Positions 5,458 to 53,573 of a stretch of DNA of 64,000 nt are shown here, piece by piece. Position 1 is the first letter of the stretch. The number at the start of each line of letters is the position of its first letter. The stretch comes from an uncultured Chloroflexia bacterium (GTDB lineage: Bacteria > Chloroflexota > Limnocylindria > Limnocylindrales > CSP1-4). A program made the position numbers and the translations under genes. Under the pieces are notes generated by a model. The model had not been told where the DNA came from. It saw only the letters and a program-made list of their open reading frames with translations, and did no database searches. The stretch is taken from the NCBI GenBank assembly GCA_963719285.1, contig CAVRBO010000004.1, positions 842,064 to 906,063 of the forward strand, in the 5' to 3' direction.

Positions 5458-5480
5458 GGGCCGGTCGCCGGTGGGGGCGT

Positions 5481-11624: not shown

Positions 11625-11649
11625 CGGCCCGCCGATCCGGCTCGCGCCG

Positions 11650-21462: not shown

Positions 21463-21577
21463 CCGGGCGATGATTGACTCAGCAACTATGGGTTGCAGGC
21501 CGATCGCAGATGGTAGACTGTCGACCGTTTCGCCGGTTCTCCCCAGCCTTCGTTCCCGCCGGACCGTCGGAGGACTC

Positions 21578-31261: not shown

Positions 31262-31475
31262 GCGGCGATTCTAGGGCGACTCACCGGGGTGTGCGGTCGA
31301 CCGCTGTCGATGGACGCGAACGTCGCCGGCAACGGGTCCGGGACACCGTTGCGATGTCGCCTCTCCCGTGCGCTGGGGCGCGCCCCAGCGCCTTCGCCTC
31401 CAGGCGCTGCCCGCGCGGTGGCGCCACCGAGATCGCTCGCTCGGGAGCGTTGCTCCGCTACCATGGGCCCGTCCC

Positions 31476-33802: not shown

Positions 33803-34018
33803 CTAGCGCTCGGTCGGCGCCTCGTTCGGGTCGGCCGGCACGATCGAGACCTCCTCGTCGCAGCTCTTGCAGCGGAAGATCCGGCCCACGCCCCACGAGC
33901 GCTCCGGATCGTCCGTCGCGGCATCGGGATGAGGGCGCTGCTCGACCATGACGCCTCGGCTGCCGTCGCCATGGCGGTGCTCCACCTGGAACGTCGTCAG
34001 GATGCTGCGCGGGTCCAT
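33803..34018 (-). CDS. Hypothetical small protein (71 aa) with a His/Cys cluster
   Basis: A strong ribosome-binding site (AAGGAGGAG) precedes the ATG. Composition is balanced. It contains HRHGDGS...FRCKSCDEE. No family was assigned. Confidence 0.4.
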   Translation of the reverse strand: MDPRSILTTFQVEHRHGDGSRGVMVEQRPHPDAATDDPERSWGVGRIFRCKSCDEEVSIVPADPNEAPTER

Positions 34019-34069: not shown

Positions 34070-34801
34070 TCAGCGGTCGACACCGCTCCGCGTCCGCTCA
34101 TAGCGCGCCCGGCGCTCGTGGAACAGCGCCTCGCCACCGGGAAGCTGGACCGAGCGGTAGACGATCGGCGGCCTGCCCGCGGACGCCAGCCGCTCCGCCG
34201 CACCGGCGAGGACCGCCCAGGCCAGTGCCACGAGCACGGCCCCGGAGGTGGGAGCGAACCGCTCCTCCAGCCCCGGGATGTCGAGCACGGCGTCGCCCAC
34301 GTCGCCGCCCACGTCGATGAGGATGTCGGCGAGGTCGATGAGTTTCGCGCCGCTCGGATGCTCGACGACGATGTCGGGATCGCGCTCGTACGCGACGCAG
34401 GTCAGGCCGATGACCGTGAGCCCGGCCGCGCGGGCGGCGATCGCGACCTGGACCGTCCCCGCGTCGGTCCCGGCGTTGGTGCCGACGATGACGACGTCGC
34501 CGGCCTCGGGGACGAAGTCGCCGTCTCCGCGCAGCATCCCGGCCTCGATCGACAGCATCGGGGAGGCGAGGTCGGGCGCCTCGCCGAGCGTGTGGACCGC
34601 CGCGAGGCCACCCGCTCGAAGATAGAGCTCGCTGTGAAGGACGTGGCTCGTGGCGGCGACGTACACACGCCGCCCGCTCGCGATCGCGTCGGCCACGGCA
34701 GCCGCCGCCCGGTCGATCGCGTCGGCCTGGGTCAGCGCGAGCTCCTCGAGGATGGCGATCGTCCGGCGCAGGTAGCGGGCCGGCGCCCCGGATCCCGTCA
34801 C
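34070..34801 (-). CDS. SIS-domain protein (UPF0309 / SIS_2-like)
   Basis: RVYVAATSHVLHSELYLRAGGLAAV...VIVGTNAGTDAGTVQVAIAARAAG resembles the UPF0309 SIS family of putative phospho-sugar-binding proteins. Confidence 0.7.
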   Translation of the reverse strand: MTGSGAPARYLRRTIAILEELALTQADAIDRAAAAVADAIASGRRVYVAATSHVLHSELYLRAGGLAAVHTLGEAPDLASPMLSIEAGMLRGDGDFVPEAGDVVIVGTNAGTDAGTVQVAIAARAAGLTVIGLTCVAYERDPDIVVEHPSGAKLIDLADILIDVGGDVGDAVLDIPGLEERFAPTSGAVLVALAWAVLAGAAERLASAGRPPIVYRSVQLPGGEALFHERRARYERTRSGVDR

Positions 34802-35842
34802 AGCGGCAGCTCGCCTTCGAGGTACGTCTTCCAGGGGCTGAAGCCGAACGGTCCGTAATACCCGAGCAGGGTCGTCCAGTCGATCACGCAGTCGCGCACG
34901 CCGCGCTCATGGAGCGTGTCCAGGGCCACGGCGAGCAGAGCCCGCCCGAGGCCGCGTCCACGCAGTCGCTCGACCACCCCGATCGGCCCCAGGCCTCCGC
35001 TCGCCGGCCTCAGCAGGCCCTCCCAGAAGCGCGGCCCGAAGAGCGCTCCGTCGCCGCGCTGGTGGATGGTGGCGAAGCCCGCGATCCGCTTCGCCGCGAC
35101 CGGAGGGGCCGGCGTGTCGGCGGGCACGAGCAGCAGCACGTCCGAGGGAGCCATGCCGTGGTCCAACGCCCAGCCCAGGTCGTGGACCCAGTCGAGCTTG
35201 AACTGGCGATCCAGGAAGGAGAGGAAACCCTCGCTCTCGCGAGGGTCCAGCGGCCGGACTGTCAGGCCCGCGGCGGCCAGGGCCTCCCGCTCGCGGTCGG
35301 TCGTCGCGGCCCCGTCGAGAGGCGCCCGCAGGTCGTAGGTCTCACCCTCGAACCTGGCGCCCAGGGCGGTGAAGAAGGGCTCGGCTGCGGGCAGGTCGGT
35401 CGGCACGCCCGGGAACAGGTAGTGGATGCCGCCGCCGATCCGGACGCGAGTGATGCCGTCGGCCCGTGCGTCGGCGACGAGCCGGTTGACGATCGCCCGG
35501 CCGATGCCCTCGCGCTGGCGGCCGGGAGTGACCGCGACGACCTGGAGCCAGCCCTCGTGGACCCAGCCCCGCCGCCCCCGGACGAGCCCGCGCGAGCGAC
35601 CCAGGTACCCGAATCCCACGACCGGACCCTGCCGCCTGGGTACACCCGGCTCCGGTTCGCCGAGGTCGGCGGCCGCAACGATGACATCCGACGGCTGGAA
35701 GTCGGGGTTGTCGGTCGTCAGCTGCCGCCACAGCCGTGCGCGAAGCGGGTACAGGTCTCCTGCGCAGGCCTGCCAGAGCGCGACGATCTCGGGATCGTCG
35801 GCCGGGCCGAGCTCCCGGAGGGCGACGCCGTAGACGCTCAAC
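34798..35842 (-). CDS. Tandem GNAT-domain N-acetyltransferase
   Basis: Two acetyl-CoA-binding blocks are present (VAVTPGRQREGIGRAIVN; VVERLRGRGLGRALLAVAL). A TTG start at 35842 is assumed, because the upstream stop at 35852 limits the frame. The start is uncertain. Confidence 0.6.
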
Positions 35843-35851
35843 GGTGCGTCC

Positions 35852-36853
35852 TCACCTGATGCCGCGGACCCGCAGGAAGGACTGCCGGACGACCGCCCAG
35901 GCGGCTGCCGGGTCCTCGCATGCGCAGGTCGACATCGCCGCGCAGCCGTCGTACGACCAGGCGGCGATGTTCCGCGCACCCGCTGCGACCGCTGCGTCGA
36001 CGGCGACACCGATCTCGCCCTCGCGCCCGGCCGGGACACTGAACGCCTGGATCCAGACATGGTGGTCGAGCCCGTGGCGCTGGGCCACCTCGACGGTCGC
36101 CTTCGCATGGCGCCCGACATACTCCGCGGCGTCGCCGCCGAAGCTGAACCAGTACGGATCCGTCCCGAAGTCGTCGAGGCCCGGGATCGAGGCGGCCCGG
36201 TCCCAGTCGCGGAAGCCAGGGTTCGTCGCCTCGGGCGGCATGATGCAGATCGCGTTGCGCATCCCCTTCGACCGCGCATACAGGCTGGCGTCGGCCAGCA
36301 GGTCGTGCATCGTCTGCTCGATGAACGCCTCGACGTCGGGTCCGTAGGCGGTCGGCATCTCGCCACCGTGCCGCTCCCGCCAGAGCGACCGACAGACCTC
36401 ACACCGGCAGCCCCACACCCCGTCCGCGAAGTAGACGGTGGGCTCGTCCCAGAAGACCGTCCGGCCGCCGATGTCCGACGCCCGGTCGATCCACTCGTGG
36501 AGCCAGGTCCGGAACGACGGCTGGTTGAGGCAGGCGATCGTCGTCCGCCCGCCGTCGGAGCGGATCTGGACGGCCTCGGGGTGGAACGCCCCGAACCGGC
36601 TGAACGGCTCGCCACCGAACACCTCGCCGACGCCCCACGGGTCGATCCAGCTGTCCATCCCACGTTCCTGGGTCATCCGCACGACGCGGGCGACCGAGTC
36701 CGGCTGCCAGCGCTGGTCGAACTCGCTGAAGCAGTGGACGACGTACGTCGTGCCGGAGGCGGCCATGTCGTCGAGATCCGCGGCGACGTGTTTCGGGGCT
36801 CGCGTCTCGAAGTACGCGACGCCGGTCTTGATGCCACTCGCCATGATGCTCAA
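35852..36853 (-). CDS. Hypothetical protein, possibly a TIM-barrel sugar-active enzyme
   Basis: The 333 aa product has the features FWDEPTVYFADGVWGCRCEVCR and HHVWIQAF and a balanced composition. The gene overlaps both neighbours by 4 nt. No confident family assignment was possible. Confidence 0.55.
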   Translation of the reverse strand: MSIMASGIKTGVAYFETRAPKHVAADLDDMAASGTTYVVHCFSEFDQRWQPDSVARVVRMTQERGMDSWIDPWGVGEVFGGEPFSRFGAFHPEAVQIRSDGGRTTIACLNQPSFRTWLHEWIDRASDIGGRTVFWDEPTVYFADGVWGCRCEVCRSLWRERHGGEMPTAYGPDVEAFIEQTMHDLLADASLYARSKGMRNAICIMPPEATNPGFRDWDRAASIPGLDDFGTDPYWFSFGGDAAEYVGRHAKATVEVAQRHGLDHHVWIQAFSVPAGREGEIGVAVDAAVAAGARNIAAWSYDGCAAMSTCACEDPAAAWAVVRQSFLRVRGIR

Positions 36854-38256
36854 ACCTCGCGCAGGTAGATGGGGTTGGTCAAGGCAGCGACGTCTCCGTT
36901 GCCGTCGTCGAGCTCGAGGCGGACGAATCGCCGGCCCGCCGATGGGATCCGGAAGGTGGCCCGTGGCGGGCCCGATGCTTCGAGCCCTCGATCGGACAGG
37001 ATGCGGACGGCGAGGCCCGTCGGGTCGCCGTCGAGGTCCGACTCCACCTCGATCGTCTCGTCGCGGCGAACGTCCATGGTCTCACCGGGCACTGCGCGGG
37101 GAAGGCCCCCGATCGAGGGCGCCGGAGCGGTCCCGCGCACGACGAGGCCCGGTCGGGGCGTGTCCGGACGGGCAGTGACCACGACGTGGCCGGCACGGAT
37201 CGCCTCGACGATGCCGTCCCGGTCGCGGGTCGCCGCGTGGACCCAGGTGGTCGGCCCGGCCAGGGGCTGGCCCTTGCGGCGCCGGAACGAATGGCAGTCG
37301 GAGCCGCCGACGGCGGTCGGATGAGCCCCGCCGGCCAGCAGCCCGGCCCACCAGTCGATGGCGCGACGCTCTTCCGACGACCACGGCCCGTTCCAGACCT
37401 CGATCGTGTCCGCCGCGGCGGCGACGGCGTCGCCCAGCTCCCACGGGGACGTGCCGCCGCAGGGGTGATTGACCGACACGAGGCCGCCCTGTCGATGGAC
37501 CTCGTCGAACGAGCGAAGCATGTCGGCCGAGGTTCGGTTCCGGAAGTCCACCCAGCCCGAGAGGCCCCATGCGTTCGAATGGCCGTAGTAGGTGGTGATC
37601 TCCTCGGCCCGGAGCAGCACGAGTCGGCCCCCCTCCGCCGCCAGCTCCGGATGGTGACTGTCCGTGTTGTGGTCCGTCACGGCCAGGAAGTCGAGGCCGA
37701 GATCGGTCGCCTCGGCGACAAGACCCGCCGGACGCTCCGCGCCGTCGCTGTGGACGGTGTGGCAGTGGAGATCGCCCCGCAGCCAGATGGGTGCGGTCCG
37801 TTCCCCCGCGCTGCGATGGGTCGAGGGCTCGGCCCTCGGAGGACGCGCGACCACGTCCACGACCGAGGGCGGCAGGGCGTCGAGCGTCTCGACGGTGAGG
37901 CGGTACGGGGCGCCGAGCTCGGCGACCTGGTAGAGCCCGAGGACGACGTGCCAGGTTCCCGGCGCGATCGGGCCCGGACGGTAGCCGGGCGTCGCCGCGT
38001 CGGCCGCCAGCCACACGTCCGACCGCTCGCTCCCGCTCCAGCCTCGGAATGCCGGCGATCCGAACTCGAGCGGACCCGGACCGAACAGACCCAGGTCGAT
38101 CGTGTTGCCGCCCGTGCGCACGTCCGCGGACATCGCGTCCTCGTAGGTGAAGCCGACATGGAGCGCAGAACGTCCCTGCGGAACGTCGAAGGGGATCGCC
38201 AGATAGTCGGACTGGAGGCGATCGGCGGGCATCACGCGACCGATCAGTTCCGTCAC
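36850..38256 (-). CDS. PHP-domain metallohydrolase (CehA/McbA-like) with an N-terminal beta-rich domain
   Basis: The PHP motifs are WLRGDLHCHTVHSDG, LAVTDHNT, YYGHSNAWG, VNHPCGG and GGSDCHS. Confidence 0.75.
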   Translation of the reverse strand: MTELIGRVMPADRLQSDYLAIPFDVPQGRSALHVGFTYEDAMSADVRTGGNTIDLGLFGPGPLEFGSPAFRGWSGSERSDVWLAADAATPGYRPGPIAPGTWHVVLGLYQVAELGAPYRLTVETLDALPPSVVDVVARPPRAEPSTHRSAGERTAPIWLRGDLHCHTVHSDGAERPAGLVAEATDLGLDFLAVTDHNTDSHHPELAAEGGRLVLLRAEEITTYYGHSNAWGLSGWVDFRNRTSADMLRSFDEVHRQGGLVSVNHPCGGTSPWELGDAVAAAADTIEVWNGPWSSEERRAIDWWAGLLAGGAHPTAVGGSDCHSFRRRKGQPLAGPTTWVHAATRDRDGIVEAIRAGHVVVTARPDTPRPGLVVRGTAPAPSIGGLPRAVPGETMDVRRDETIEVESDLDGDPTGLAVRILSDRGLEASGPPRATFRIPSAGRRFVRLELDDGNGDVAALTNPIYLREV

Positions 38257-38282
38257 CGTCGAAGCATAGCGAAGCCGACGAC

Positions 38283-38759
38283 ATGGAAACGGTCAACGGT
38301 CGACCATCGGACAGGCGTCACACCGGCCGTGGTTCGTCGGTCCGCGACAGTGTGCAAGGGGACGATCGCCCGTCGGCGTGGCAACGGATCGGGCCATTCG
38401 GCCGATTCCTCGTGGGAGCGGTCGTCGCGGCCGGCTTCGCGTTGGCCGGCGTGAAGGCCGTCGAGACGACGCTCGCCCTGACCGTGCGGGTGCCGACGGT
38501 CGAGACACTCCCGGACAGGATCGGGGTCTGCGGCCGAACCTATCATCGGGCGGCCGGTGGGCCGGACGACCTCCTCGGGATCGACGAGTTACGTGCGACC
38601 GGCCCCGAGCCGGTCATCGCGCTGCCGTTGCGGATCCAGCCCTGCATCGACGGGCCATGCAACCGCGGCTTCCCCGGCATCCCCGGATGCGCGACGGTCG
38701 TGTTCGTGCGTATCGAGGGCGACCGCTACGCGGCCTACGATCTCGTGGGCGGCCCCTGA
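38283..38759 (+). CDS. Hypothetical membrane-anchored protein
   Basis: A 158 aa ORF in an otherwise gene-free 590 nt gap. It has one hydrophobic helix (FLVGAVVAAGFALAGV) followed by a Cys-containing region (CGRTY...CIDGPCNRGFPGIPGC). There is no clear ribosome-binding site. Confidence 0.3.
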   Translation: METVNGRPSDRRHTGRGSSVRDSVQGDDRPSAWQRIGPFGRFLVGAVVAAGFALAGVKAVETTLALTVRVPTVETLPDRIGVCGRTYHRAAGGPDDLLGIDELRATGPEPVIALPLRIQPCIDGPCNRGFPGIPGCATVVFVRIEGDRYAAYDLVGGP

Positions 38760-38761: not shown

Positions 38762-38777
38762 TGCGCAACCGATTTCG
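38762..38777. promoter_or_regulatory. Candidate LacI-family operator (copy 4)
   Basis: TGCGCAACCGATTTCG lies 70 nt upstream of the Gfo/Idh/MocA start. Its core GCAACCGATTTC matches the reverse complement of the core of the 43357 site at 11 of 12 positions. Confidence 0.35.
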
Positions 38778-38845
38778 CGGGGCGAGGGCGGGTCGACTAC
38801 CATCGCGGCCTGGCGCCCAGCGGAGTGCGCCCATCGGAGGGCCGG

Positions 38846-39871
38846 ATGACGGCGCGGATCGGACTGGCGATCATCGGGGCGGGACGGATGGGCAGCAACC
38901 ACGCCCGGCTCATCGCCGCCGGCGCGCCCGAGCTGCGGATCGTCGCGATCGGCGACGTCGACGGCGATGCCGCCCGTCGCCTGGCCGACGAGATCGCGGC
39001 GACGCCGTTCGCCGATCCACTCAAGGCGATCGCGGCACCGGGGGTCGACGCGGTGCTCATCGCCGTCTCGTCGGTCCACCACCGGGCGATCGTGGAAGCG
39101 GCCGCCGCCGCCGGCCGCGACATCCTGTGCGAGAAGCCCCTGGCGCTCGATCTCCCCGAGACGGACGCGATCCTGGCCGCGGTCGCCCGGGCGGGTGTCC
39201 GCCTGCAGGTCGGCCTGATGCGCCGGCACGACCCGGATCACGTCCGGGCACGCGCCCGGATCGTCGCCGGGGAGCTCGGCCGGCCGCTCCTGTTCAACAG
39301 CCGCCAGTACGACACCGACCCGCCGCCCGCGGCCATCCTGGACCCCCGGATCAGCGGCGGGATCATGCTCGACATGGGGATCCACGAGTTCGATTCGGGG
39401 CGCTTCCTCATGGATTCGGAGGTCGTCGAGGTCCAGGCGACCGGCTCGGTCCAGGTCTACCCGGACGCCGCGACCCACGGCGACGTCGACACGGCCGTGG
39501 TCAACCTGAGATTTGCCTCCGGGGCCATCGGCAGCGTCGAACTCAGCCGGCGGGTCGCCTTCGGCGAGGACGTCCGGACCGAGGTCCACGGCACGGACGG
39601 AAGCGCCTTCATCGGCGGCCTGCCGATCGTCTCGGGCTCCGCGTTCGGTGGTCCGGGGGGTGTCCGCTGGGACCCGACCCCGCCATCGATGCCCCGTTTC
39701 GCGGCGGCCTACACGGACCAGGCGCGCGCCTTCGCCCGGTCGATCCTGGACGACCGGCCGGCGAGTCCGTCGGGGGCGGACGGACGGGCCGCATTCGTCA
39801 TCGCGATGGCCGCCCAGCGTGCGCTCGCGGACGGCGGCACGATCACGGTCGAGGCGCCAGCAGGGCCTTGA
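38846..39871 (+). CDS. Gfo/Idh/MocA family oxidoreductase (inositol 2-dehydrogenase-like)
   Basis: ARIGLAIIGAGRMGSNHARL...ILCEKPLALDL... The start is at MTARIG (38846) with GGAGG upstream. Confidence 0.8.
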   Translation: MTARIGLAIIGAGRMGSNHARLIAAGAPELRIVAIGDVDGDAARRLADEIAATPFADPLKAIAAPGVDAVLIAVSSVHHRAIVEAAAAAGRDILCEKPLALDLPETDAILAAVARAGVRLQVGLMRRHDPDHVRARARIVAGELGRPLLFNSRQYDTDPPPAAILDPRISGGIMLDMGIHEFDSGRFLMDSEVVEVQATGSVQVYPDAATHGDVDTAVVNLRFASGAIGSVELSRRVAFGEDVRTEVHGTDGSAFIGGLPIVSGSAFGGPGGVRWDPTPPSMPRFAAAYTDQARAFARSILDDRPASPSGADGRAAFVIAMAAQRALADGGTITVEAPAGP

Positions 39872-40700
39872 TCCGGTCGAACATGAACCGGGACGACTCC
39901 ACGGCGCGCTCCTCCCAGGCGAAGACGCACGCGGTGAGGATGCCGTCGAAGCCGACGGCGCGGAGCGCGCCGAAGCACGCCTCGAAGTCCACCTCGCCCT
40001 GGCCGATGTCGAGATGCTGGTGGACCCGGGCCGTCGAGCCGGGCGGGTTGACGATGTAGCGGTTGCCGGACGACGCCCGATGGTTGAGCACGTCCGCGAT
40101 GTGGACCTGGGCCAGGACGGGCGCGGCGTAGGCGATCATGGCCGCGATGTCGTCGCCGAGGTAGTACGTGTGCGGCGCACAGAAGACATAGCCCACGCCG
40201 GGCGAGTCGATCCCGCGGACGAGGTCGACCGCATCGGTGTTGCGCTCGATGAAGTCGTCCGGATGGGCCTCCAGGTTGAGCTTGATGCCCTCCTGCTCGA
40301 AGATCGGCAGGAGCTCTTCCATCGAGCGCCAGAACTGGGCCTCGCTCCGGGCCGCCTGCTCCGGCCGCCCGTTGAACTCCGAGTTCATCGTCGTGCAGCC
40401 CACGTCCACGCACAGCTGGATCGCCCGCTTCCAGTAGCGCACGGCGGCCAGGCGTTCGTCCTCGTCGGGGCTCGACCAGCGGTAGAGGGGCAGGATCGAC
40501 GCCATCTCGAGTCCTGAGTCGGTCAGCCCCTTGCGGAACTCGCCGACCTTGGCCCGGTCGGCCCGCGGGTGGGTGAAGAACGGGATGAAGTCCGGCCGGG
40601 GCGACAGCTCGATCGCGTCGTAGCCGATGTCGGCCGCGATCCGGCAGACCTCGCCGAACGGCCGGTCGCGGAGCATGTACGGATCGAGGGCGATCTTCAC
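39843..40700 (-). CDS. Sugar phosphate isomerase/epimerase (xylose-isomerase-like TIM barrel)
   Basis: The 285 aa product, ...YDAIELSPRPDF...NLEAHPDDFIERNTDAVDLV...HIADV, matches the AP-endonuclease-2 / xylose-isomerase-like TIM-barrel family. Confidence 0.8.
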   Translation of the reverse strand: MKIALDPYMLRDRPFGEVCRIAADIGYDAIELSPRPDFIPFFTHPRADRAKVGEFRKGLTDSGLEMASILPLYRWSSPDEDERLAAVRYWKRAIQLCVDVGCTTMNSEFNGRPEQAARSEAQFWRSMEELLPIFEQEGIKLNLEAHPDDFIERNTDAVDLVRGIDSPGVGYVFCAPHTYYLGDDIAAMIAYAAPVLAQVHIADVLNHRASSGNRYIVNPPGSTARVHQHLDIGQGEVDFEACFGALRAVGFDGILTACVFAWEERAVESSRFMFDRIKALLAPRP

Positions 40701-40701
40701 G

Positions 40702-43299
40702 TCAGGGAACCTCCCGTGTCGAAGCGATGCGACCGCGGAGCGTCGTCCCGCTCTCCGCGATCCGTGCCGCCATCCGCGCCCGCAGGGCCGGGTCCGCGAT
40801 CGTCGCGATGGTCTCGAGCCATCGTACGGTCCCGTCGATGACGGCGACGATCGCCTCGGCGTCGGTCCTGGCGAACAGCGGCCGATCGACGACCTCGACG
40901 TACACCGGCGAGGTGTGGGCGGCCATGCTCGTCAGGTACGCGGACCGGATCTCGTGGTCGCTCCGCGCACGGGCGGCGATCCAGGCGCCGGACGTGACGT
41001 CCACGAGGGCGGACAGCGACAGCTCGGTCGTGCCGCCCGGCGCATCCTCGCGCGCCACGACCCGGCCATTCATGACGAGCTCCACGCAACCCACGATGGG
41101 CTGGGCTGCCCGGACCCGGATCCGGACCTCCAGGCGGCCACCGGAGGCGGGCAGGACGACGACGTCGCCGGGCTCGTGGCCGTCGACCAGCAGCTCGATG
41201 ACCGGCCCGGACGTGGCGAACGTGCGGCCGGCCCGGACCGCGGCCGCCCAGGACTCGAACGTGGCGGCGCCATCGGGATCGAGGCGCGCATACGTCCGGA
41301 CCCCGCCGAGCGGCATCTCGGCCGACATCTTGTCGGTCCCGCCCAGGACCGGGACGCGATAGCCGCAGTTCAGGAAGCGGTACCACTCGTTGACCGTGGG
41401 GTTGTCGAGGCCGGGCGCGAACGTCTGCATCTCGATCGCGTCGATCCGGCCGGCGACGATGTCGGCCGCGATCTCCGCGAAGGGCAGCGGGAAGTGGGCG
41501 CCGACGACGAGCCCACCCTCGGCATGGCAGCGATCGGCCCAGTCGGCCAGCAGCTCGGCGATCGGGGCGCCGATCGGGCCCTCCGGCGCGCCGCCCGACG
41601 CCAGGGGCAGGATCGGCCGGCGCGCCCCCAGCAGCCCCAGGTGGCCCAGCACGTTCTGGCGGTTCTCGGTCCCGACCATCACGACGTGGCGACCGCTCGG
41701 GTCCTGTTGCGAGCCGAAGGCGAGGTCCGCGACGCTGGCGAACTCGTCGCCGAGCTGGGTGGCGAGCAGGTGCACGAACGTGATGTCCTCGGCGGCCGCC
41801 TGGAGCAGGGCCGTTGAGGGCGGGATGAAGTGGACGTGCGGGTCGGCCGTGCGCCACCCCGCGGCGCGCAGGTCGATCGAGCGATCCAGCGCGAACGCCA
41901 GCTCGCGGGTGCCCGGTCCGACCGTCACGGTCGTGCGCACCGGCCGGTGGTCGAAGCCCTTCACGACCTCGACCTCGACGGCGCCCACCGGCAGGTCGAT
42001 CTCGAACCGACCGGGGACGTAGGCGTAGGTGTCGGCTCCGAGGACGAGGCCGGCGCCGGAGTCCTCGTAGATCCCCGTATTGACCTCGTCGCGATGGCCG
42101 AGCGGCGGCAGGTACCGCCCGTCCGCGGCGACGAACCGCACCCGTGCCGGGCTCGCCTCGCCGTCCGCGCCGACCCGCACCTCGACCCGGACGCCGGCAG
42201 CCGCCAGGGGTTCGATCCTGACCCGACCGTCCGGACTGGTCGCTCCGGTCGCCAGGTCCGCCGCGGCGACCGTCCAGTCACCGAGCGCGATCCGCGCGTC
42301 CGGCGCCAGCGCGAGATCGACGACACGGCGCGCTGCGACCTCGCCGTCGGCCGCGTCGGCGCTGGGTGTCGGCCGGCCCCAGCCGATCGGCCCCGGCCCG
42401 TCGTGCGGGCATCCGCGCGGCAGGGGCAGCGGCCTCGACCGGATCGCGATGCCCAGGTCGACCTCGGGGAGCTCCGCGCCGGCGCCCGTGACGAGGATCT
42501 GCCGGCGGGGCGCCAGAACGAGCGGGTCCGCCGTGCCGGCGAACAGGGTGACGGCCGCGATGACGATGTCCGTCCCGGGTCGTCCGCCGCCGAGCGGGAT
42601 GACCCGGAGCGTCGCGGGCTCGGCGACCCCGCCGAGGGGGATCGCGTGGAGCCAGTACGTCGCGTCGTCGTCGGGCGTCGGGACGAAGTCGGCCACGCCG
42701 GTCTGGTGCGCGCCCCACGAGCCGGGCAGGACCGTGAGCGCCCCGCCGTGTCCGGCCGGCGCGTACCGACCGGGGGCCTGGCGGCTGTACGGGCCGCGCC
42801 AGTCGAGCGCCTCATCAGAGCGATGGCCGATGGCCGCGAACGGCACGAACCCCCAGCCGATGATGCCGTCCGCGATCTCGAACCGGCGTCGCACGTCCAC
42901 GGTCCGGGTCTCGCCGCCGGCCAGGCTGAACTCGTAGCGCGCGAGAGGCTCGCCCGTGGGGAGGACCCAGCCCACCGGGTTCCCGGGGCTGCGTTCGCCG
43001 GTGGCGTCGCGCCAGCTGTCGGCGAAATGGGCGATCACGATGTGGCTCGCCGGACCGTGGTCCCGCAGGTCGATGGTCAGCTCATCGCCGGCGACGATCC
43101 AGCGGCGTCCTGCCGCCCGGAACCCCAGGTCGAACGGCAGGCCACGGAACACCGAGGGTCCCTCGGGCAGGCGGGCGAGGGCCTGCTCATAGAGCGGATG
43201 GAAGCGCGCGCCGACCTCCGCGTCAGACGCGTTCCAGGCCGTCGAGAGGTCGACGGAGCGGGCCAGGGGAGTGGCTCGACGCGTGCGCCCGGTCGTCAT
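40702..43299 (-). CDS. Large uncharacterised protein (865 aa). The N-terminal region of about 480 aa is unknown; the C-terminal part is a divergent PHP-like module.
   Basis: The C-terminal motifs WRTADPHVHF, VMVGTENRQNVLGHLGLLG, GGLVVGAHFP and GGTDKMS align with the PHP protein at 36850-38256. This protein is a paralog of the one at 55467-58061. Confidence 0.8.
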   Translation of the reverse strand: MTTGRTRRATPLARSVDLSTAWNASDAEVGARFHPLYEQALARLPEGPSVFRGLPFDLGFRAAGRRWIVAGDELTIDLRDHGPASHIVIAHFADSWRDATGERSPGNPVGWVLPTGEPLARYEFSLAGGETRTVDVRRRFEIADGIIGWGFVPFAAIGHRSDEALDWRGPYSRQAPGRYAPAGHGGALTVLPGSWGAHQTGVADFVPTPDDDATYWLHAIPLGGVAEPATLRVIPLGGGRPGTDIVIAAVTLFAGTADPLVLAPRRQILVTGAGAELPEVDLGIAIRSRPLPLPRGCPHDGPGPIGWGRPTPSADAADGEVAARRVVDLALAPDARIALGDWTVAAADLATGATSPDGRVRIEPLAAAGVRVEVRVGADGEASPARVRFVAADGRYLPPLGHRDEVNTGIYEDSGAGLVLGADTYAYVPGRFEIDLPVGAVEVEVVKGFDHRPVRTTVTVGPGTRELAFALDRSIDLRAAGWRTADPHVHFIPPSTALLQAAAEDITFVHLLATQLGDEFASVADLAFGSQQDPSGRHVVMVGTENRQNVLGHLGLLGARRPILPLASGGAPEGPIGAPIAELLADWADRCHAEGGLVVGAHFPLPFAEIAADIVAGRIDAIEMQTFAPGLDNPTVNEWYRFLNCGYRVPVLGGTDKMSAEMPLGGVRTYARLDPDGAATFESWAAAVRAGRTFATSGPVIELLVDGHEPGDVVVLPASGGRLEVRIRVRAAQPIVGCVELVMNGRVVAREDAPGGTTELSLSALVDVTSGAWIAARARSDHEIRSAYLTSMAAHTSPVYVEVVDRPLFARTDAEAIVAVIDGTVRWLETIATIADPALRARMAARIAESGTTLRGRIASTREVP

Positions 43300-43321
43300 G
43301 CCTGCGGACCCCTCCCGACGA

Positions 43322-43372
43322 TATTGACGTGGGGCGAGGCGCGATGATACCTTCCCTGCAATCGGTTGCGCA
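43322..43372. promoter_or_regulatory. Putative promoter plus LacI-family operator (copy 1)
   Basis: TATTGACG is at 43322-43329. The near-palindrome TGCAATCGGTTGCGCA at 43357-43372 matches the LacI-family consensus TGNAANCGNTTNCA in 13 of 14 positions. It sits immediately upstream of the AAGGAG site and ATG of iolD, and is divergent from the large paralog at 43299. Confidence 0.5.
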
Positions 43373-43382
43373 AGGAGAAAAG

Positions 43383-45269
43383 ATGGAGACCGTCCGGCTG
43401 ACCGTGGGCCAGGCCATCGTGCGTTTCCTTGCCCAGCAGTATGTCGAGCGGGACGGACGCGAGGGCCGCTTCATCGAGGGCGTCTGGGGCATCTTCGGGC
43501 ACGGCAACGTGGCCGGCCTGGGCCAGGCCCTCGAGGAGCTCGGCGACGCCGAGGCGATGCCGTACTACCGACCCCAGAACGAGCAGGCCCAGGTCCACCT
43601 GGCCGCGGCGTTCGCCCGCCACCACAACCGCCTCCGGGCCTATGCCTGCACGTCGTCGGTGGGACCTGGCGCGATGAACATGGTCACCGGTGCCGCCGGG
43701 GCGACCGTCAACCGCATCCCTGTCCTGCTCCTCCCGAGCGACTACTTCGCCAACCGGGCCCCGGATCCGGTCCTCCAGCAGATCGAGCACCCGACCGAGC
43801 GCGATGCGAGCGCCAACGACGCCTTCCGGCCGGTCTCGCGCTTCTTCGACCGGATCTCGCGGCCGGAGCAGCTCCTCGGCTCCCTGCCGGAGGCGTTCCG
43901 TGTCCTCACCGATCCGGCAGAGACGGGAGCGGTGACGATCTCGCTGCCCGAGGACGTCCAGTCCGAGGCGTTCGACTGGCCGACCCGGTTCTTCGGGAAG
44001 CGCGTCTGGCGGGTCCGGCGCCCGCAGCCGGACGCGGCCGACCTGGCCGCCGCGGCGCGGGTCATCGGCGCGTCCAAGGCCCCGGTCATCGTCGTGGGCG
44101 GCGGCACGATCTACTCCGAGGCGACCGACGAGCTCGCCGCGTTCGCGACCCGCTTCGGCATCCCGGTCGTCGAGACCCAGGCCGGCAAGGGCGCCCTGCC
44201 CTGGAACCATCCGATGAACGCCGGGCCGGCCGGCACGAACGGCGGCCTGGCGGCCAACCGGCTGGCCCGCGACGCGGACGTCGTCATCGGCATCGGGACC
44301 CGGATGGGCGACTTCGTCACCGCCTCGCGCACGACCTTCCAGCATCCCGGCGCGACGTTCGTCGGCATCAACATCGGGTCGATGGACGCCCACAAGTGGC
44401 GGGCGATCCCGGTGGTCGCAGACGCTCGCGAAGCGATCCGGGCGCTCGAGGCGCGGCTCACCGCGGACGGCTACGCCGGCACGGCGGCTCCCTATCGCCG
44501 GCGGATCGCGGACCTCAAGCACGAGTGGGACGGCATCGTCGACGGCCTGCGGGCGATCAACGGCGAGCCGGGCGATCTCGGCCAGGCCGAGGTGATCGGC
44601 CTCGTCAACGACGCGGTGGGCGGCCACGCGACCGTCATCTGCGCCGCCGGCAGCCTGCCCGGCGACCTGCTCCGCCTGTGGCGGCCCGAGGACCCCAAGG
44701 CCTACCACGTGGAGTACGGCTTCTCGTGCATGGGTTACGAGATCGTGGCCGGGCTCGGCGTACGCCTGGCCGACCCCGAGCGCGACGTGGTCGTCATGGT
44801 CGGCGACGGGTCGTATCTCATGCTCAACTCGGAGATCGTGACGGCGGTGGCCGAGGGCCTCAAGTTCACGATCGTCGTCCTCGACAACCATGGCTTCCAG
44901 TGCATCCTCGCGCTGCAGCGCCTGGTAGGCGTGCCCGACTTCGGCAACGAGCTCCGCTTCCGCGACCCGGAGCGCAACCGGCTGACCGGGCCGTACGTGC
45001 CGGTGGACTTCAAGGCCCACGCCGAGGCGATGGGCGCCCTCGCGATCCACGCCTGCACGCCCGATGAGCTGCGCGCCGCGCTCGCCCAGGCGAAGGTCGC
45101 CGACCGGGTCACGGTCATCGTCGTCCCGACCGAGCCCGAGAAGCGGATGCCCGGCTTCGAGTCGTGGTGGGACGTGCCGGTCGCGGGCGCGAGCGGACAG
45201 GCCGGCGTGCGGACCGCCCGGAAGGACTACGACAAGAAGCGCGCCGCCCAGCGCATCGACATCCAGTGA
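43383..45269 (+). CDS. iolD: 3D-(3,5/4)-trihydroxycyclohexane-1,2-dione acylhydrolase (thiamine-diphosphate enzyme, IolD-like)
   Basis: METVRLTVGQAIVRFLAQQYVERDG... is a typical IolD N-terminus, with a TPP-binding GDGSYLMLNSE motif. The start is at 43383 (AAGGAG site); the ATG at 43329 from the ORF track was not used. Confidence 0.85.
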   Translation: METVRLTVGQAIVRFLAQQYVERDGREGRFIEGVWGIFGHGNVAGLGQALEELGDAEAMPYYRPQNEQAQVHLAAAFARHHNRLRAYACTSSVGPGAMNMVTGAAGATVNRIPVLLLPSDYFANRAPDPVLQQIEHPTERDASANDAFRPVSRFFDRISRPEQLLGSLPEAFRVLTDPAETGAVTISLPEDVQSEAFDWPTRFFGKRVWRVRRPQPDAADLAAAARVIGASKAPVIVVGGGTIYSEATDELAAFATRFGIPVVETQAGKGALPWNHPMNAGPAGTNGGLAANRLARDADVVIGIGTRMGDFVTASRTTFQHPGATFVGINIGSMDAHKWRAIPVVADAREAIRALEARLTADGYAGTAAPYRRRIADLKHEWDGIVDGLRAINGEPGDLGQAEVIGLVNDAVGGHATVICAAGSLPGDLLRLWRPEDPKAYHVEYGFSCMGYEIVAGLGVRLADPERDVVVMVGDGSYLMLNSEIVTAVAEGLKFTIVVLDNHGFQCILALQRLVGVPDFGNELRFRDPERNRLTGPYVPVDFKAHAEAMGALAIHACTPDELRAALAQAKVADRVTVIVVPTEPEKRMPGFESWWDVPVAGASGQAGVRTARKDYDKKRAAQRIDIQ

Positions 45270-45328
45270 CCCACCCACACGCCCCGAGCCTGCCCGGGCC
45301 GGGCGCGTCCGCTTAGCGAGGAGACAGC

Positions 45329-46567
45329 ATGCCCGGACCCGGGATCGAGCTCGTCGGCGCCGAAGAGACGGCCGAGGTGATGGAGGTGCTCCAGAGCGGC
45401 TACCTGAGCCGCTACGGCCCATCCGACGACCCCCGGTTCAAGGCCAAGGTCCACCACGTCGAAGAGGCGATCGCGAAGCTGACCGGGGTCAACCACGCCC
45501 TCGCCCTCCATGGCGGTGGATCGGCGGCGTTGTGGATCACCCTGCTCAGCCTGGGCATCGGAGCGGGCGACGAGGTCATCGTGCCCGGGTTCACCTACGT
45601 CGCCTCCATCTCGGCGATCGTGTACACCGGCGCGACGCCGGTCCTGGCGGAGATCGACCAGACGTTCGACCTGGACCCGGCCGACGTCGAGGCGAAGATC
45701 ACGCCCCGCACGGCGGCGATCCTCGTCGTCCACATGTTGGGTGGGGTGGCCCGGATCGAGGAGCTCAAGGCGATCGCCGACAAGCACGGGATCGCCCTCA
45801 TCGAGGATTGCGCCCAGGCATTCGGAGCGTCGTACAAGGGCCGCAGCGTCGGCTCATTCGGCATCGCCGGCACGTACAGCTTCAACGAGTACAAGACGAT
45901 CACCTGCGGCGACGGGGGGATGATCGTGACCGACGACGCCGGCCTGTACGAGCGCGCCTTCGCCATGCACGACCAGGGCCATGCCCCGGACCGGCTCGAG
46001 TCGAAGTACGCGCCGCGGCCCTTCCTTGGCATGAACTTCCGGATGACCGAGTTGTCCGGTGCCGTTCTCGGCGCGCAGGTCAGGAAGCTCGACACCATCG
46101 TGTCGCACCTGCGGGCCAACAAGGCGATCGTCAAGGACATGCTCGAAGAGGTCCCGATGATCGACTTCCGGACCTTGACCGACCCCGCGGGCGACCTCGC
46201 CACCCACCTCGTCGTCGTGCTTCCGACCGCGGAGATGGCCGACAAGGTGGTGGCGGAGGTCGGCTCGAGGACCCTCGGCGAGTCGGGCTGGCACACCTAC
46301 AGCCGGATGAACCACCTGCTCGACAAGCGGACGATCAACGGCAAGGGCTGCCCGTTCGATTGTGGCGACCCCAGCCACGCCCACGGCGAGTACCGCGCCG
46401 GCATGCTCCCCCAGACCGACGCGCTTCTCGATCGCTCGCTGAGCATCGGCATCGGGGTCAAGGATGCGAACCTGGCGCCGTTCGGCCTCCGGATGCGCGA
46501 CGGGGCGGCCGAGGCCCGGCAGGTCGGGGCCACGTTCCGGGACGCCGTGATCAAGCACCGGGCGTGA
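45329..46567 (+). CDS. DegT/DnrJ/EryC1/StrS-family PLP aminotransferase (scyllo-inosose / sugar aminotransferase-like)
   Basis: ...EVMEVLQSGYLSRYG...ALALHGGGSAALWITL...HMLGGVARIEELKAIADKHGIALIEDCAQAFGASYKGRSVGSFGIAGTYSFNEYKTITCGDGGM is a DegT-family fold. A GAGGAG ribosome-binding site is present. Confidence 0.85.
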   Translation: MPGPGIELVGAEETAEVMEVLQSGYLSRYGPSDDPRFKAKVHHVEEAIAKLTGVNHALALHGGGSAALWITLLSLGIGAGDEVIVPGFTYVASISAIVYTGATPVLAEIDQTFDLDPADVEAKITPRTAAILVVHMLGGVARIEELKAIADKHGIALIEDCAQAFGASYKGRSVGSFGIAGTYSFNEYKTITCGDGGMIVTDDAGLYERAFAMHDQGHAPDRLESKYAPRPFLGMNFRMTELSGAVLGAQVRKLDTIVSHLRANKAIVKDMLEEVPMIDFRTLTDPAGDLATHLVVVLPTAEMADKVVAEVGSRTLGESGWHTYSRMNHLLDKRTINGKGCPFDCGDPSHAHGEYRAGMLPQTDALLDRSLSIGIGVKDANLAPFGLRMRDGAAEARQVGATFRDAVIKHRA

Positions 46568-46583
46568 TCGCGAGGGGTCGTCG

Positions 46584-49434: not shown

Positions 49435-49489
49435 CGCCGGCGTCACCGCCCCACCGCCGAACGTTCGTCCCGACCCCCAGGAGTCAACG

Positions 49490-50347: not shown

Positions 50348-50395
50348 ATTGACGTCGCGGATGCGCGGGTGCTACGGTCTGCGCAATCGGTTGCA
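50347..50395. promoter_or_regulatory. Putative promoter plus LacI-family operator (copy 2, autoregulatory position)
   Basis: GATTGACG is at 50347-50354. TGCGCAATCGGTTGCA at 50380-50395 is essentially the reverse complement of the 43357 site. It lies upstream of the LacI regulator gene. Confidence 0.5.
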
Positions 50396-50587
50396 GTCGT
50401 TGGAGGTGCGGTCCAAGATGCGTGCTTCCCCGCGCGATCTCCGGGCGACCGACGTCGCCTGGTCGGGCGACCTGCGCTGCCATCGGGCCGGATCGGCCGG
50501 TCGGGCACGCCAGCGGGCGGCCCTCGACCGGAGCGCCCGCGGGGCTGACCGCGCCCTTCGCGTCGCGGTCTAGGGGAGGAGGGGCGC

Positions 50588-53542: not shown

Positions 53543-53573
53543 CCACCAGGCCAGGGCTGATCGAGGAGATCGG

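What the first reader, a model, noticed from the sequence alone, without database searches (positions are those of the whole stretch)
34070..38256. Tightly coupled four-gene operon: PHP hydrolase, unknown protein, tandem GNAT, SIS-domain protein
Four minus-strand genes have 4 nt start/stop overlaps at 36850-36853 and 34798-34801 and a 9 nt gap at 35843-35851. A PHP metallohydrolase (a phosphoesterase-type fold), a SIS domain (phospho-sugar binding) and a double GNAT (N-acetylation) together suggest processing of an amino-sugar or amino-cyclitol phosphate. A weak AAACGGT-containing sequence (GAAACGGTCAACGGTCG, about 38263-38279) lies just upstream of the first gene and loosely resembles the regulon half-site.
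Basis: partly seen in the sequence, partly recalled or inferred. Interest (0 to 1): 0.55.

Follow-up and report, generated by a model that had tools for sequence, protein, structure and literature searches.

The report
Conserved amino-sugar salvage operon, Limnocylindria
This is a real, co-regulated gene cluster of an uncultured soil Chloroflexota bacterium that most likely salvages amino sugars. It matters mainly because its "unknown" gene founds an unannotated family of glycosidase-like enzymes and because a conserved control site sits upstream.

Summary
The genes are real: GC3 is 0.87-0.92 and all have homologues. Three details need correcting. B probably starts at ATG 36844, which leaves a 5-nt gap after A rather than a 4-nt overlap. 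The B/C gap is 10 nt. The quoted motif lies at 38286-38302. A fifth small gene, E (33803-34018), follows D.

The organism is Chloroflexota, class Limnocylindria.

- **Conservation:** B-C-D is conserved in order and strand in all 17 related loci. A (CehA/McbA-type PHP metallohydrolase) is absent from 8 of the 15 species-representative loci.
- **C:** resembles GlmA, the glucosamine/glucosaminide N-acetyltransferase (E 4e-31).
- **D:** belongs to the UPF0309/NagS SIS family but keeps only 2 of the 4 essential NagS residues.
- **Regulation:** an exact 13-mer, GTCGACCGTYGAC, precedes the first operon gene in 13 loci and the window. Related copies precede the GntR-ABC transporter operon and the GH38/aminotransferase genes.

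Best reading: GntR-controlled salvage of glucosaminide-type amino-sugar glycosides. The substrate is unproven.

The parts
38286..38310 (-). Operator-like element. The exact 15-mer TGGTCGACCGTTGAC lies at 38292-38306 and contains the conserved 13-mer GTCGACCGTYGAC. It is built from GTCGAC-like hexamers spaced 7 bp apart.
   Evidence: The exact 13-mer occurs once per locus, always upstream of the first operon gene (A, or B where A is missing). This holds in 11 of 15 species-representative Limnocylindria loci plus L001 and L002. One-mismatch variants occur in L011 and L017. It is the only zero-mismatch match in the window.
38263..38268 (-). Probable -10 box TATGCT, 6 nt upstream of the GTG of A. 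This implies a leaderless or nearly leaderless transcript.
   Evidence: TATGCT is conserved at the same place in the window, L005 and L006. In L006 it also lies 6 nt before the GTG of A. A has no Shine-Dalgarno sequence. This is an inference: the consensus sigma-70 scan found no promoter.
36850..38256 (-). A: three-domain CehA/McbA-type PHP metallohydrolase. It has an N-terminal beta-sandwich with an invariant FRGWSGSER motif, a PHP barrel, and a C-terminal beta-sandwich. It is an accessory first gene of the operon.
35852..36844 (-). B: 330-aa single-domain GH42-like TIM barrel with a Cys4 cluster (C108, C149, C151, C154), D136-E137 on strand beta4 and Q269 at the end of beta7. Residue numbers are counted from the alternative TTG start at 36853. 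It is an unannotated family and a candidate amino-sugar glycosidase.
34798..35841 (-). C: tandem-GNAT N-acetyltransferase of the GlmA type (glucosamine/glucosaminide N-acetyltransferase-like), with a TTG start.
   Evidence: Pfam finds two GNAT regions. PDB 5kf1 (GlmA) matches at E 3.8e-31 over residues 97-342, with the viDWT and YG positions conserved. PMC10936415 identifies 5KF1 as GlmA. MshD scores only 19.5 bits against a cut-off of 163.
34070..34801 (-). D: SIS-domain protein of the UPF0309/PRK02947 family, a NagS relative but not an orthologue. It overlaps C by 4 nt (GTGA).
   Evidence: SIS_2 matches at 9e-14 and PRK02947 scores 149.5 bits against 135. PDB 3cvj matches at 6e-21 and NagS 9eol at 2.3e-20. 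At the NagS essential positions, R64 and D179 are kept, H53 is Thr and E94 is not conserved.
33803..34018 (-). E: 71-aa small protein with HxH...CxxC, a strong RBS (GAAGGAGG) and a 51-nt gap after D. It occurs only in the closest relatives.
   Evidence: GC3 is 0.92. Orthologues with their own RBS occur in L005 and L006 at 59% and 55% identity. It was called independently as a 71-aa gene on L087.
21509..21531 (+). Second operator copy, GATGGTAGACTGTCGACCGTTTC, upstream of the operon formed by the GntR(FCD) regulator and the ABC sugar transporter genes.
   Evidence: It matches the extended consensus TGGTAcACTGTCGACCGTT seen upstream of the operon in other species.
31293..31312 (+). Third, weaker operator-like copy (GCGGTCGACCGCTGTCGATG). 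It lies in the divergent region between GH38 alpha-mannosidase and the aminotransferase-V/Gfo operon.
   Evidence: It has one mismatch to the 11-mer core and is intergenic. This copy is weak and could be chance.

Best explanation
The locus is a cytoplasmic salvage operon for amino-sugar glycosides. It runs promoter/operator, then (A), B, C, D and (E).

**Proposed mechanism**
1. An oligosaccharide or glycoside carrying a terminal, non-acetylated glucosamine is imported by the co-regulated ABC transporter.
2. C, a GlmA-type tandem GNAT, N-acetylates the terminal amine with acetyl-CoA.
3. B, a GH42-like zinc-cluster TIM barrel, removes the resulting N-acetylhexosamine. It has an Asp-Glu pair on strand β4 and no Glu at the nucleophile position. 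It would therefore use the substrate's own acetamido group, as GH20-type hexosaminidases do, and fill the role of NagZ.
4. After phosphorylation by a kinase encoded elsewhere, D converts the sugar phosphate. D is an SIS enzyme of the NagS/MurQ-related UPF0309 family.
5. A, a CehA/McbA-type PHP metallohydrolase, is a dispensable extra hydrolase. It could be a deacetylase, esterase or phosphatase.
6. Transcription starts about 6 nt after a TATGCT box. It is controlled through the conserved GTCGACCGTYGAC element, most likely by the cluster's GntR/FCD regulator, whose own operon carries a copy.

**Status of each step**
- Shown here: gene structure, conservation, folds, family memberships and conservation of the operator.
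- Inferred: substrate identity, the order of reactions, the catalytic mechanism of B, the phosphorylation step, and which regulator binds.
For: - **Operon and conservation:** B, C and D keep the same order and strand in all 17 related loci: 15 species representatives plus L001 and L002. Junctions of 1-13 nt or 4-nt overlaps are seen in L001 and L002.
- **C:** GlmA (5kf1) matches at E 3.8e-31 with the D287/Y297-equivalent positions kept. The next best hit, 4zm6, is a GH3 β-N-acetylglucosaminidase fused to a GlmA-like domain, at E 9e-17. That is a natural fusion of the two proposed activities.
- **B, residues:** WDEP, the four Cys, Y234, W267 and W299 are invariant.
- **B, genomic context:** homologues lie directly upstream, on the same strand, of AnmK (L057, L058, L059, L064) or NamZ (L003, L004, L024, L038). 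In B. subtilis, namZ's operon partner is the exo-β-N-acetylglucosaminidase nagZ, in an operon that also holds the SIS etherase murQ (PMC8054146).
- **D:** it passes the PRK02947 cut-off. Its only characterised relative acts on GlcNAc-6P and ManNAc-6P (PMC12680351).
- **Regulation:**
Against: - No enzyme activity has been tested.
- D lacks two of the four essential NagS residues. About 30%-identical NagS homologues were inactive on GlcNAc-6P (PMC12680351).
- B's catalytic residues were inferred from an AF2 secondary-structure map, not from a superposition.
- 11 of 35 B-family members give weak hits to xylose-isomerase-like TIM barrels.
- The hhalign comparison with a GH20 was not significant.
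- No sugar kinase, NagA or NagB lies in the operon.
- The co-regulated GH38, Gfo/Idh/MocA, VC1184-type PLP enzyme and MBL genes are not explained by a simple GlcN/GlcNAc route.
- Distant B homologues mostly stand alone, without C or D.
- The catalytic roles of GlmA D287 and Y297, and GlmA's substrate range, are recalled from memory. The primary paper could not be read.
Confidence: 0.45

Rival explanations
1. The cluster catabolises glycosyl-inositol head groups, such as GlcN-inositol cores of GPI anchors, plant or fungal GIPCs, or mycothiol-derived GlcN-Ins. GH38 would trim alpha-mannose. C would acetylate GlcN-Ins and B would release GlcNAc and myo-inositol. The inositol would feed the adjacent iol pathway.
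For: In the window and its closest relatives the operon is divergent from an iolG-like gene (TIGR04380, 288 bits). It abuts an iol cluster with iolD, iolC, iolB and aldolase genes.

Other species carry related genes nearby. L001 and L002 have GDPD phosphodiesterases next to the cluster, and L001 also has an inositol monophosphatase and PfkB kinases.

GH38 is conserved next to B. A 'glycolipid-binding' protein is nearby. GPI GlcN is naturally non-acetylated (general knowledge).
Against: Adjacency to the iol genes is limited to the window's own genus-level clade: the window, L005, L006 and L087. The GlcN-inositol bond is alpha, which a GH-A/GH42-like barrel would not be expected to cleave. Nothing direct was found. 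C matches MshD far below its cut-off.
Confidence: 0.15
2. B is not a hydrolase. It would be a metal-dependent TIM-barrel lyase or isomerase working with the conserved Gfo/Idh/MocA oxidoreductase. The oxidoreductase would oxidise the sugar at C3 and B would cleave or rearrange it by elimination, as in 3-keto-glycoside or levoglucosan-type pathways. C and D would process the products.
For: Gln, not Glu, sits at the end of strand β7 where the clan GH-A nucleophile lies. Many acidic residues and His are invariant. 11 of 35 members give weak AP_endonuc_2 hits, the best at 2.8e-5, and Foldseek also lists psicose epimerases. A Gfo/Idh/MocA gene is conserved convergently downstream and has weak similarity to levoglucosan and glycoside 3-dehydrogenases.
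Confidence: 0.15
3. The cluster degrades N-glycan or mannoside cores. GH38 would remove alpha-mannose. B would be a beta-mannosidase acting on Man-beta-1,4-GlcNAc, like GH164 or GH5_18 (BlMan5B). C and D would deal with the released hexosamine.
For: The top Foldseek hits are GH164 beta-mannosidase, and they also include BlMan5B bound to GlcNAc. GH38 lies directly divergent from B in six species that lack A (L010, L013, L014, L016, L017 and, as fragments, L002). A GH20 is nearby in L002.
Against: B lacks the Asn-Glu and the β7 Glu that retaining beta-mannosidases require. An N-acetyltransferase has no obvious role, because N-glycan GlcNAc is already acetylated. The AnmK and NamZ contexts point to muramic-type sugars.
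Confidence: 0.12
4. The module is biosynthetic or modifying rather than catabolic, for example making an N-acetylated amino-sugar metabolite. Alternatively, the genes are merely neighbours with no shared pathway.
For: GNAT, SIS and PHP proteins all occur in biosynthetic clusters. No transporter or kinase lies inside the operon itself.
Against: There is no glycosyltransferase, nucleotidyltransferase or exporter. An operator is shared with an uptake ABC transporter and a GH38. Gene order is strictly conserved with 4-nt overlaps across genomes whose B proteins are only 61-91% identical to the window's.
Confidence: 0.06

Closest known systems
GlmA of Clostridium acetobutylicum (glucosamine/glucosaminide N-acetyltransferase, PDB 5KF1)
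   Same: C has a tandem GNAT architecture. It matches GlmA at E 3.8e-31 over about 245 residues, with the viDWT and YG active-site positions conserved. GlmA belongs to a cell-wall sugar recycling context together with an SIS etherase (recalled from memory).
   Different: C is about 20 residues longer and its N-terminal domain aligns poorly. It comes from a different phylum. Its partner here is an unannotated TIM barrel rather than NagZ, MurK or MurQ. Its activity is untested.
NagS (SCO4393), GlcNAc-6P dehydratase of Streptomyces; UPF0309/PRK02947 SIS family
   Same: D belongs to the same NCBIfam subfamily, scoring above its cut-off. It matches at E 2e-20 over the full length. R64, A65, S54 and D179 equivalents are kept.
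   Different: H53 is replaced by Thr and E94 is not conserved. S91 is Pro, S121 is Ala and N228 is Gln. There is no dmdR1 synteny. Homologues at about 30% identity were shown to be inactive on GlcNAc-6P (PMC12680351). D therefore probably has a different substrate or reaction.
GH42 beta-galactosidases (for example 4UCF, 3TTS, 1KWK)
   Different: Identity is only 12-16%, and no Pfam GH42 hit appears even at E<=10. B is a single domain without the trimerisation and C-terminal domains. It has Asp-Glu rather than Asn-Glu, and Gln at the nucleophile position.
Bacillus subtilis murQ-murR-murP-amiE-nagZ-namZ peptidoglycan/MurNAc recycling operon
   Same: Both combine an SIS phosphosugar enzyme with exo-hexosaminidase-type enzymes under a dedicated repressor. 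B homologues pair with NamZ or AnmK in other phyla (PMC8054146).
   Different: The Limnocylindria operon has no MurP, AmiE, NamZ or AnmK. It uses an ABC transporter and a GntR regulator, and its enzyme families differ.
CehA/McbA carbaryl hydrolases and PHP-family phosphoesterases (3E38, TM0559 2ANU)
   Different: CehA and McbA are about 770-800 aa long and hydrolyse a xenobiotic carbamate. A is 468 aa, with its own conserved N-terminal beta-sandwich. Its closest structures have no known function. BLASTP finds no similarity to the two 865-aa paralogues in the window.

Membership tests
CehA/McbA family metallohydrolase (PHP superfamily) - gene A | Score above the curated cut-off of NCBIfam NF038032 | tested here: met
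   206.4 bits against a cut-off of 80, residues 158-465. Pfam PHP is only marginal at 27.1 against 26.4.
CehA/McbA family metallohydrolase (PHP superfamily) - gene A | PHP metal-binding His/Asp/Glu set and PHP barrel fold | tested here: met
CehA/McbA family metallohydrolase (PHP superfamily) - gene A | Carbamate-ester or phosphoester hydrolase activity | not testable with these tools
   Only the literature is available: McbA needs His residues of its PHP-like domain for carbaryl hydrolysis (PMC8292978).
Glycoside hydrolase family 42 - gene B | Sequence match to the family model | tested here: not met
   No Pfam Glyco_hydro_42 hit for any of 35 family members, even at E<=10. No PDB sequence hit.
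Glycoside hydrolase family 42 - gene B | Catalytic (beta/alpha)8 barrel of GH42 type | tested here: met
Glycoside hydrolase family 42 - gene B | Clan GH-A catalytic pair: Asn-Glu after strand beta4 and a nucleophile Glu at the end of beta7 | tested here: not met
   Strand β4 (132-136) is followed by the invariant D136-E137, with no Asn. Strand β7 (263-269) ends in Q269, which is nearly invariant and is Leu in two members. The nearest invariant Glu, E278, lies 9 residues later. This rests on model topology; no superposition was possible.
Glycoside hydrolase family 42 - gene B | Cys4 zinc site next to the acid/base residue, and three-domain trimeric architecture | tested here: inconclusive
   C108, C149, C151 and C154 are invariant, with spacing like the Thermus A4 beta-galactosidase site (that site is recalled from memory). 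B is a single 330-aa domain, so the architecture criterion is not met.
GlmA-type glucosamine/glucosaminide N-acetyltransferase - gene C | Tandem GNAT architecture with significant similarity to GlmA | tested here: met
   Two GNAT regions. 5kf1 matches at E 3.8e-31, residues 97-342 against 76-310. 5KF1 is named as GlmA in PMC10936415.
GlmA-type glucosamine/glucosaminide N-acetyltransferase - gene C | Catalytic Asp287 and Tyr297 equivalents | tested here: met
   'vidwt' and 'ygpfgf' align with GlmA 'vidwt' and 'ygrfnf'. That these two residues are the catalytic ones is recalled from memory; the primary paper was not readable.
MshD mycothiol synthase - gene C (considered) | Score above the cut-off of TIGR03448 | tested here: not met
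   19.5 bits against a cut-off of 163.1.
UPF0309 / PRK02947 SIS family - gene D | Score above the curated cut-off, and an SIS_2 domain | tested here: met
   NF002805 scores 149.5 against 135. SIS_2 matches at 9.1e-14.
NagS GlcNAc-6P dehydratase - gene D | The four residues essential for NagS activity (H53, R64, E94, D179) | tested here: not met
   A MAFFT alignment with 10 clade members gives R64 to R, D179 to D and H53 to T. E94 is S, E, D or Q, so it is not conserved. The residue list comes from PMC12680351.
NagS GlcNAc-6P dehydratase - gene D | At least about 59% identity to NagS and synteny with dmdR1, as in Streptomycetaceae | tested here: not met
   D is a remote relative only (76 bits, E 2e-20), well short of the >=58.7% identity shared by true NagS orthologues. 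It is flanked by C and E, and no dmdR1-like gene was seen.
GntR/FadR-type regulon | Shared operator upstream of the regulator's own gene and of the target operons | tested here: inconclusive
   Motif copies occur upstream of the (A)BCD operon, of the GntR-ABC operon in the window, in the divergent GntR/A region of L001 and L007, of MBL in L009 and of the SBP gene in L019. Binding by GntR was not tested.

The most novel reading that the evidence does not exclude
B founds a new, widely scattered family of cytoplasmic glycosidase-like enzymes derived from GH42 (about 1000 clusters at 50% identity). The family has lost the clan GH-A nucleophile. It would act on 2-acetamido sugars by substrate-assisted catalysis and replace NagZ in peptidoglycan or amino-sugar recycling, in Sumerlaeota, Spirochaetota, Chloroflexota and others. 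In Limnocylindria it would be coupled to a GlmA-type acetyltransferase and to a UPF0309 SIS enzyme with a reaction different from NagS. Together these would define a previously undescribed amino-sugar salvage route under a novel operator.
Probability: 0.3. Interest if true: 0.65.

Novelty: new variant of a known kind. Interest (0 to 1): 0.45.

Why it matters
Limnocylindria are abundant but uncultured soil and freshwater Chloroflexota, and their carbon sources are largely inferred. This locus offers three directly testable items:

- A compact, well-modelled protein family with no annotation. It has a GH42 fold and unusual catalytic residues, and it is linked by gene order to AnmK, NamZ and GlmA-like genes.
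- A second clade of the newly discovered NagS/UPF0309 family, with a different active site.
- A sharply conserved operator that defines a small regulon: transporter, GH38, PLP enzyme, oxidoreductase and B-C-D.

If the proposed roles hold, annotation of about a thousand 'hypothetical proteins' would improve, and amino-sugar and peptidoglycan recycling would gain an alternative enzyme. If they do not hold, this remains an ordinary, uncharacterised sugar operon.

Tried and rejected
- **Actinomycete origin:** rejected. The best related loci are Limnocylindrales/Chloroflexota MAGs, and one ENA contig is 99.1% identical.
- **AAACGGT as a regulon half-site:** rejected. The heptamer is not enriched. 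The real conserved unit is GTCGACCGTYGAC.
- **TTGACC of the motif as the -35 box for TATGCT:** rejected, because the spacer would be 22 nt. The consensus scans found no promoter or terminator.
- **C as MshD (mycothiol synthase):** rejected at 19.5 bits against 163.
- **D as a NagS orthologue:** rejected.
- **Profile comparison of B with a GH20 from L002:** not significant, probability 0.65%. Its only alignment does pair FWDE with GWDE.
- **Neighbour census of 109 genes flanking distant B homologues:** this gave mostly unrelated genes (His_Phos_1, DinB_2, PrsW, BioY). Only the AnmK and NamZ pairs are informative.
- **Homologue search for D:** it returned only close Limnocylindria relatives, so D's context in other phyla could not be examined.
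- **Contexts of A homologues elsewhere:** GH43, NanE and a BadFG kinase in L085; an Opp-type transporter plus a GNAT in L086. These are suggestive but not specific.
- **Primary GlmA papers:** not available.
- **Superposition of the B model on GH42:** not possible, because model coordinates are not exposed.

Full report
**1. Observation**

The window has about 72% G+C, so gene calls were checked by third-position G+C. Four consecutive minus-strand ORFs at 34070-38256 have GC3 of 0.87-0.92 and GC2 of 0.52-0.55.

Three details differ.
- **Start of B.** The A/B overlap depends on a TTG at 36853. The ATG at 36844 has a GAGG 11 nt upstream. It gives a 330-aa product, the same length as the 91%-identical homologue P0001. 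An independent gene caller chose it on a 99.1%-identical ENA contig. With this start, A and B are separated by 5 nt.
- **Start of C.** C can only start at TTG 35841, so the B/C spacer is 10 nt and is preceded by GAGGA.
- **Position of the motif.** The quoted sequence lies at 38286-38302.

A fifth gene, E (33803-34018, 71 aa), follows D after 51 nt. It has a GAAGGAGG ribosome-binding site and GC3 of 0.92. Orthologues occur in the two closest species, and it was called independently on L087.

**2. Organism and conservation**

Relatives of B fetched from one genome per species are MAGs of Candidatus Limnocylindrales/Chloroflexota, with the best at 91% and 89% identity. The window is therefore not actinomycetal.

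In 15 species-representative loci plus two further contigs (B identity to the window's B 61-91%), B, C and D lie in the same order and on the same strand. Junctions are 4-nt overlaps or very short gaps.

A precedes B in only 7 of the 15 loci, plus L001 and L002. It is missing from the closest species, L005. In five of the loci that have GH38 next to the operon (L010, L013, L014, L016, L017), a full-length GH38 α-mannosidase lies directly divergent from the first operon gene; L002 carries GH38 fragments in that position. A is therefore an accessory first gene.

Convergent downstream genes are also conserved: a Gfo/Idh/MocA oxidoreductase, a class-V PLP enzyme (TIGR01976, VC1184 type) and an MBL-fold hydrolase. 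So are an ABC sugar transporter and a GntR/FCD regulator.

B homologues at 49% identity or less, from other phyla, have no A, C or D nearby.

**3. The proteins**

*A (468 aa).* A passes the NCBIfam CehA/McbA metallohydrolase model at 206 bits against a cut-off of 80.
- A 32-sequence alignment shows an intact PHP ligand set and an invariant N-terminal FRGWSGSER motif.
- The AF2 model (pLDDT 91.5) shows a β-sandwich, a PHP barrel and a second β-sandwich.
- The family's characterised members hydrolyse a carbamate ester through the PHP-like domain (PMC8292978). A phosphoesterase role is therefore not a given.

*B (330 aa).* B has no Pfam, NCBIfam or PDB sequence match.
- Its family is modest in size: 1035 representatives at E<=1e-3 among 1.84 billion. 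Where sources name these proteins, they are all 'hypothetical'.
- The AF2 model (pLDDT 93.4) is a (β/α)8 barrel.
- Invariant residues include C108, C149, C151 and C154. From memory, this pattern and spacing match the GH42 zinc site.
- WDEP135-138 is invariant at the end of strand β4, as are Y234 after β6, W267 on β7 and W299 on β8.
- Two hallmarks of clan GH-A are missing. Asp, not Asn, precedes the β4 Glu. Strand β7 ends in Gln269 rather than the nucleophile Glu, and the nearest invariant Glu (E278) lies nine residues later.
- An Asp-Glu pair without an enzyme nucleophile is the signature of substrate-assisted N-acetylhexosaminidases such as GH20 (established knowledge). Applying that to B is my inference.
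- 11 of 35 members also give weak hits to xylose-isomerase-like barrels. This keeps a non-hydrolytic role open.

*C (347 aa).* C is a tandem GNAT.
- Its best solved relative is GlmA of Clostridium acetobutylicum (5kf1), at E 3.8e-31. The viDWT and YG positions are conserved.
- The next hit, 4zm6, is a GH3 β-N-acetylglucosaminidase carrying a C-terminal GlmA-like domain. It is a natural fusion of a hexosaminidase with this kind of acetyltransferase.
- MshD is rejected at 19.5 bits against a cut-off of 163.

*D (243 aa).* D passes the PRK02947/UPF0309 model. It matches BH3325 (3cvj) and NagS (9eol) at about 1e-20.
- NagS dehydrates GlcNAc-6P and ManNAc-6P.
- Its essential residues are H53, R64, E94 and D179.
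- Homologues at about 30% identity were inactive (PMC12680351).
- In D and ten clade members, R64 and D179 are kept, H53 is Thr and E94 is not conserved. Two of the three phosphate-binding hydroxyls remain.
- D is therefore a family member with a different, unknown reaction. It is the most conserved protein of the operon within the class, at 68-95% identity.

**4. Context of B in other phyla**

A census of 109 flanking genes was mostly uninformative. One pattern stands out. B is followed on the same strand, within about 20-150 nt, by one of two genes.
- Anhydro-MurNAc kinase AnmK, in L057, L058, L059 and L064. There the pair sits among unrelated housekeeping genes.
- Exo-β-N-acetylmuramidase NamZ, in L003, L004, L024 and L038.

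In B. subtilis, namZ lies next to nagZ, the exo-β-N-acetylglucosaminidase, in an operon that also contains the SIS etherase murQ (PMC8054146). This supports, but does not prove, a NagZ-like role for B.

**5. Regulation**

- The exact 13-mer GTCGACCGTYGAC occurs once per locus. It always lies upstream of whichever gene is first, A or B. This holds in 11 of the 15 species loci plus L001, L002 and the window. One-mismatch versions occur in two more loci.
- Many species share the longer form TGGTAcACTGTCGACCGTTGAC.
- In the window, a second copy (21509-21531) precedes the GntR-permease-SBP operon. A weaker third copy (31293-31312) lies between GH38 and the PLP-enzyme/Gfo operon.
- In other species, copies precede the MBL operon (L009) and the SBP gene (L019), or sit in the divergent GntR/A intergenic region (L001, L007).
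- A TATGCT box is conserved in the window, L005 and L006. It lies 6 nt before the GTG of A, which has no Shine-Dalgarno sequence. This suggests a leaderless transcript with the operator centred near -41.
- That the GntR protein is the binding factor is an inference.

**6. Interpretation**

The best-supported reading is a GntR-controlled, cytoplasmic salvage module for glycosides with a terminal, non-acetylated hexosamine.
1. C acetylates the terminal sugar.
2. B removes it.
3. D converts a derived sugar phosphate.
4. A is an optional extra hydrolase.

Confidence in this reading is about 0.45.

The gene structure, conservation, folds, family placements and operator are shown. The substrate, the reaction order, B's mechanism, the phosphorylation step and the regulator are inferred.

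Three rivals remain open.
- Catabolism of glycosyl-inositol (GlcN-Ins) head groups. This is suggested by the adjacent iol genes, and by GDPD and inositol-phosphatase genes in other species.
- A non-hydrolytic role for B together with the Gfo oxidoreductase.
- Degradation of N-glycan cores, with B as a β-mannosidase.

The amino-sugar model does not explain the roles of GH38, the Gfo enzyme, the VC1184-type PLP enzyme or the MBL hydrolase.

**7. Novelty and verdict**

This is not a new kind of system. It is a sugar-utilisation operon with a repressor-type operator.

It does combine three unusual parts: an unannotated enzyme family with a GH42 fold, a GlmA-type acetyltransferase, and a divergent member of the recently defined NagS family. 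It occurs in an uncultured class.

I rate it a new variant of a known kind, with interest 0.45.

Noticed in passing
window 33803-34018 (-): An unlisted fifth gene, E, encodes a 71-aa protein with HxH...CxxC and a strong RBS. It is conserved only in the closest species (L005, L006) and on the near-identical contig L087. No family hit was found.
   Followed up: partly
window 21509-21531 (+) and 31293-31312 (+): Further copies of the operon's operator-like element lie upstream of the GntR-ABC transporter operon and, more weakly, between GH38 and the PLP-enzyme/Gfo operon. This suggests a small regulon.
   Followed up: partly
window 38765-55453: An inositol catabolism cluster holds iolG-like, IolE-like TIM barrel, iolD-like, iolC-like, aldolase and LacI genes, two IolB genes and a split transketolase. 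A DegT/LegC-type aminotransferase (45329-46567) sits between the iolD-like and iolC-like genes, which hints at an inosamine (amino-cyclitol) branch.
   Followed up: no
window 40702-43299 (-) and 55467-58061 (-): Two further 865-aa proteins carry CehA/McbA-type PHP domains. They are 58% identical to each other and show no BLASTP similarity to A. Each has a roughly 480-aa N-terminal region with no family hit.
   Followed up: partly
L005 9400-10001, compared with window 36850-38256: Gene A is cleanly absent in the closest species. There the operator and TATGCT box are followed by a roughly 50-nt leader with an AGGAG and then B. This is a presence/absence polymorphism of the first operon gene.
   Followed up: partly
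L057, L058, L059, L064 (about 11.1-12.3 kb; L064 at 4962-6107); L003, L004 at 9014-10237; L024; L038 at 2715-3962: B-family genes in Sumerlaeota, Spirochaetota and unclassified bacteria are immediately followed by AnmK or NamZ. In L059 the pair is flanked by unrelated genes (gyrA, bioY).
   Followed up: yes
window 38283-38759 (+): A divergent small gene, F, encodes a protein of about 140-158 aa with a probable N-terminal membrane anchor and no family hit. It is conserved in L005 at 67% identity. The listed ATG start at 38283 would overlap the operator, so a later GTG near 38341 seems more likely.
   Followed up: no
window 1152-6470 and 62430-63461: F420 biosynthesis genes (CofC, CofD) and three luciferase-like monooxygenases are present. 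An inositol monophosphatase lies at 11593-12486.
   Followed up: no
window 58131-58137 (+): Another intergenic AAACGGT (CAAACGGTTGCAC) lies between the 864-aa CehA/McbA paralogue and an ABC ATPase gene. It does not match the conserved 13-mer and may be chance.
   Followed up: no
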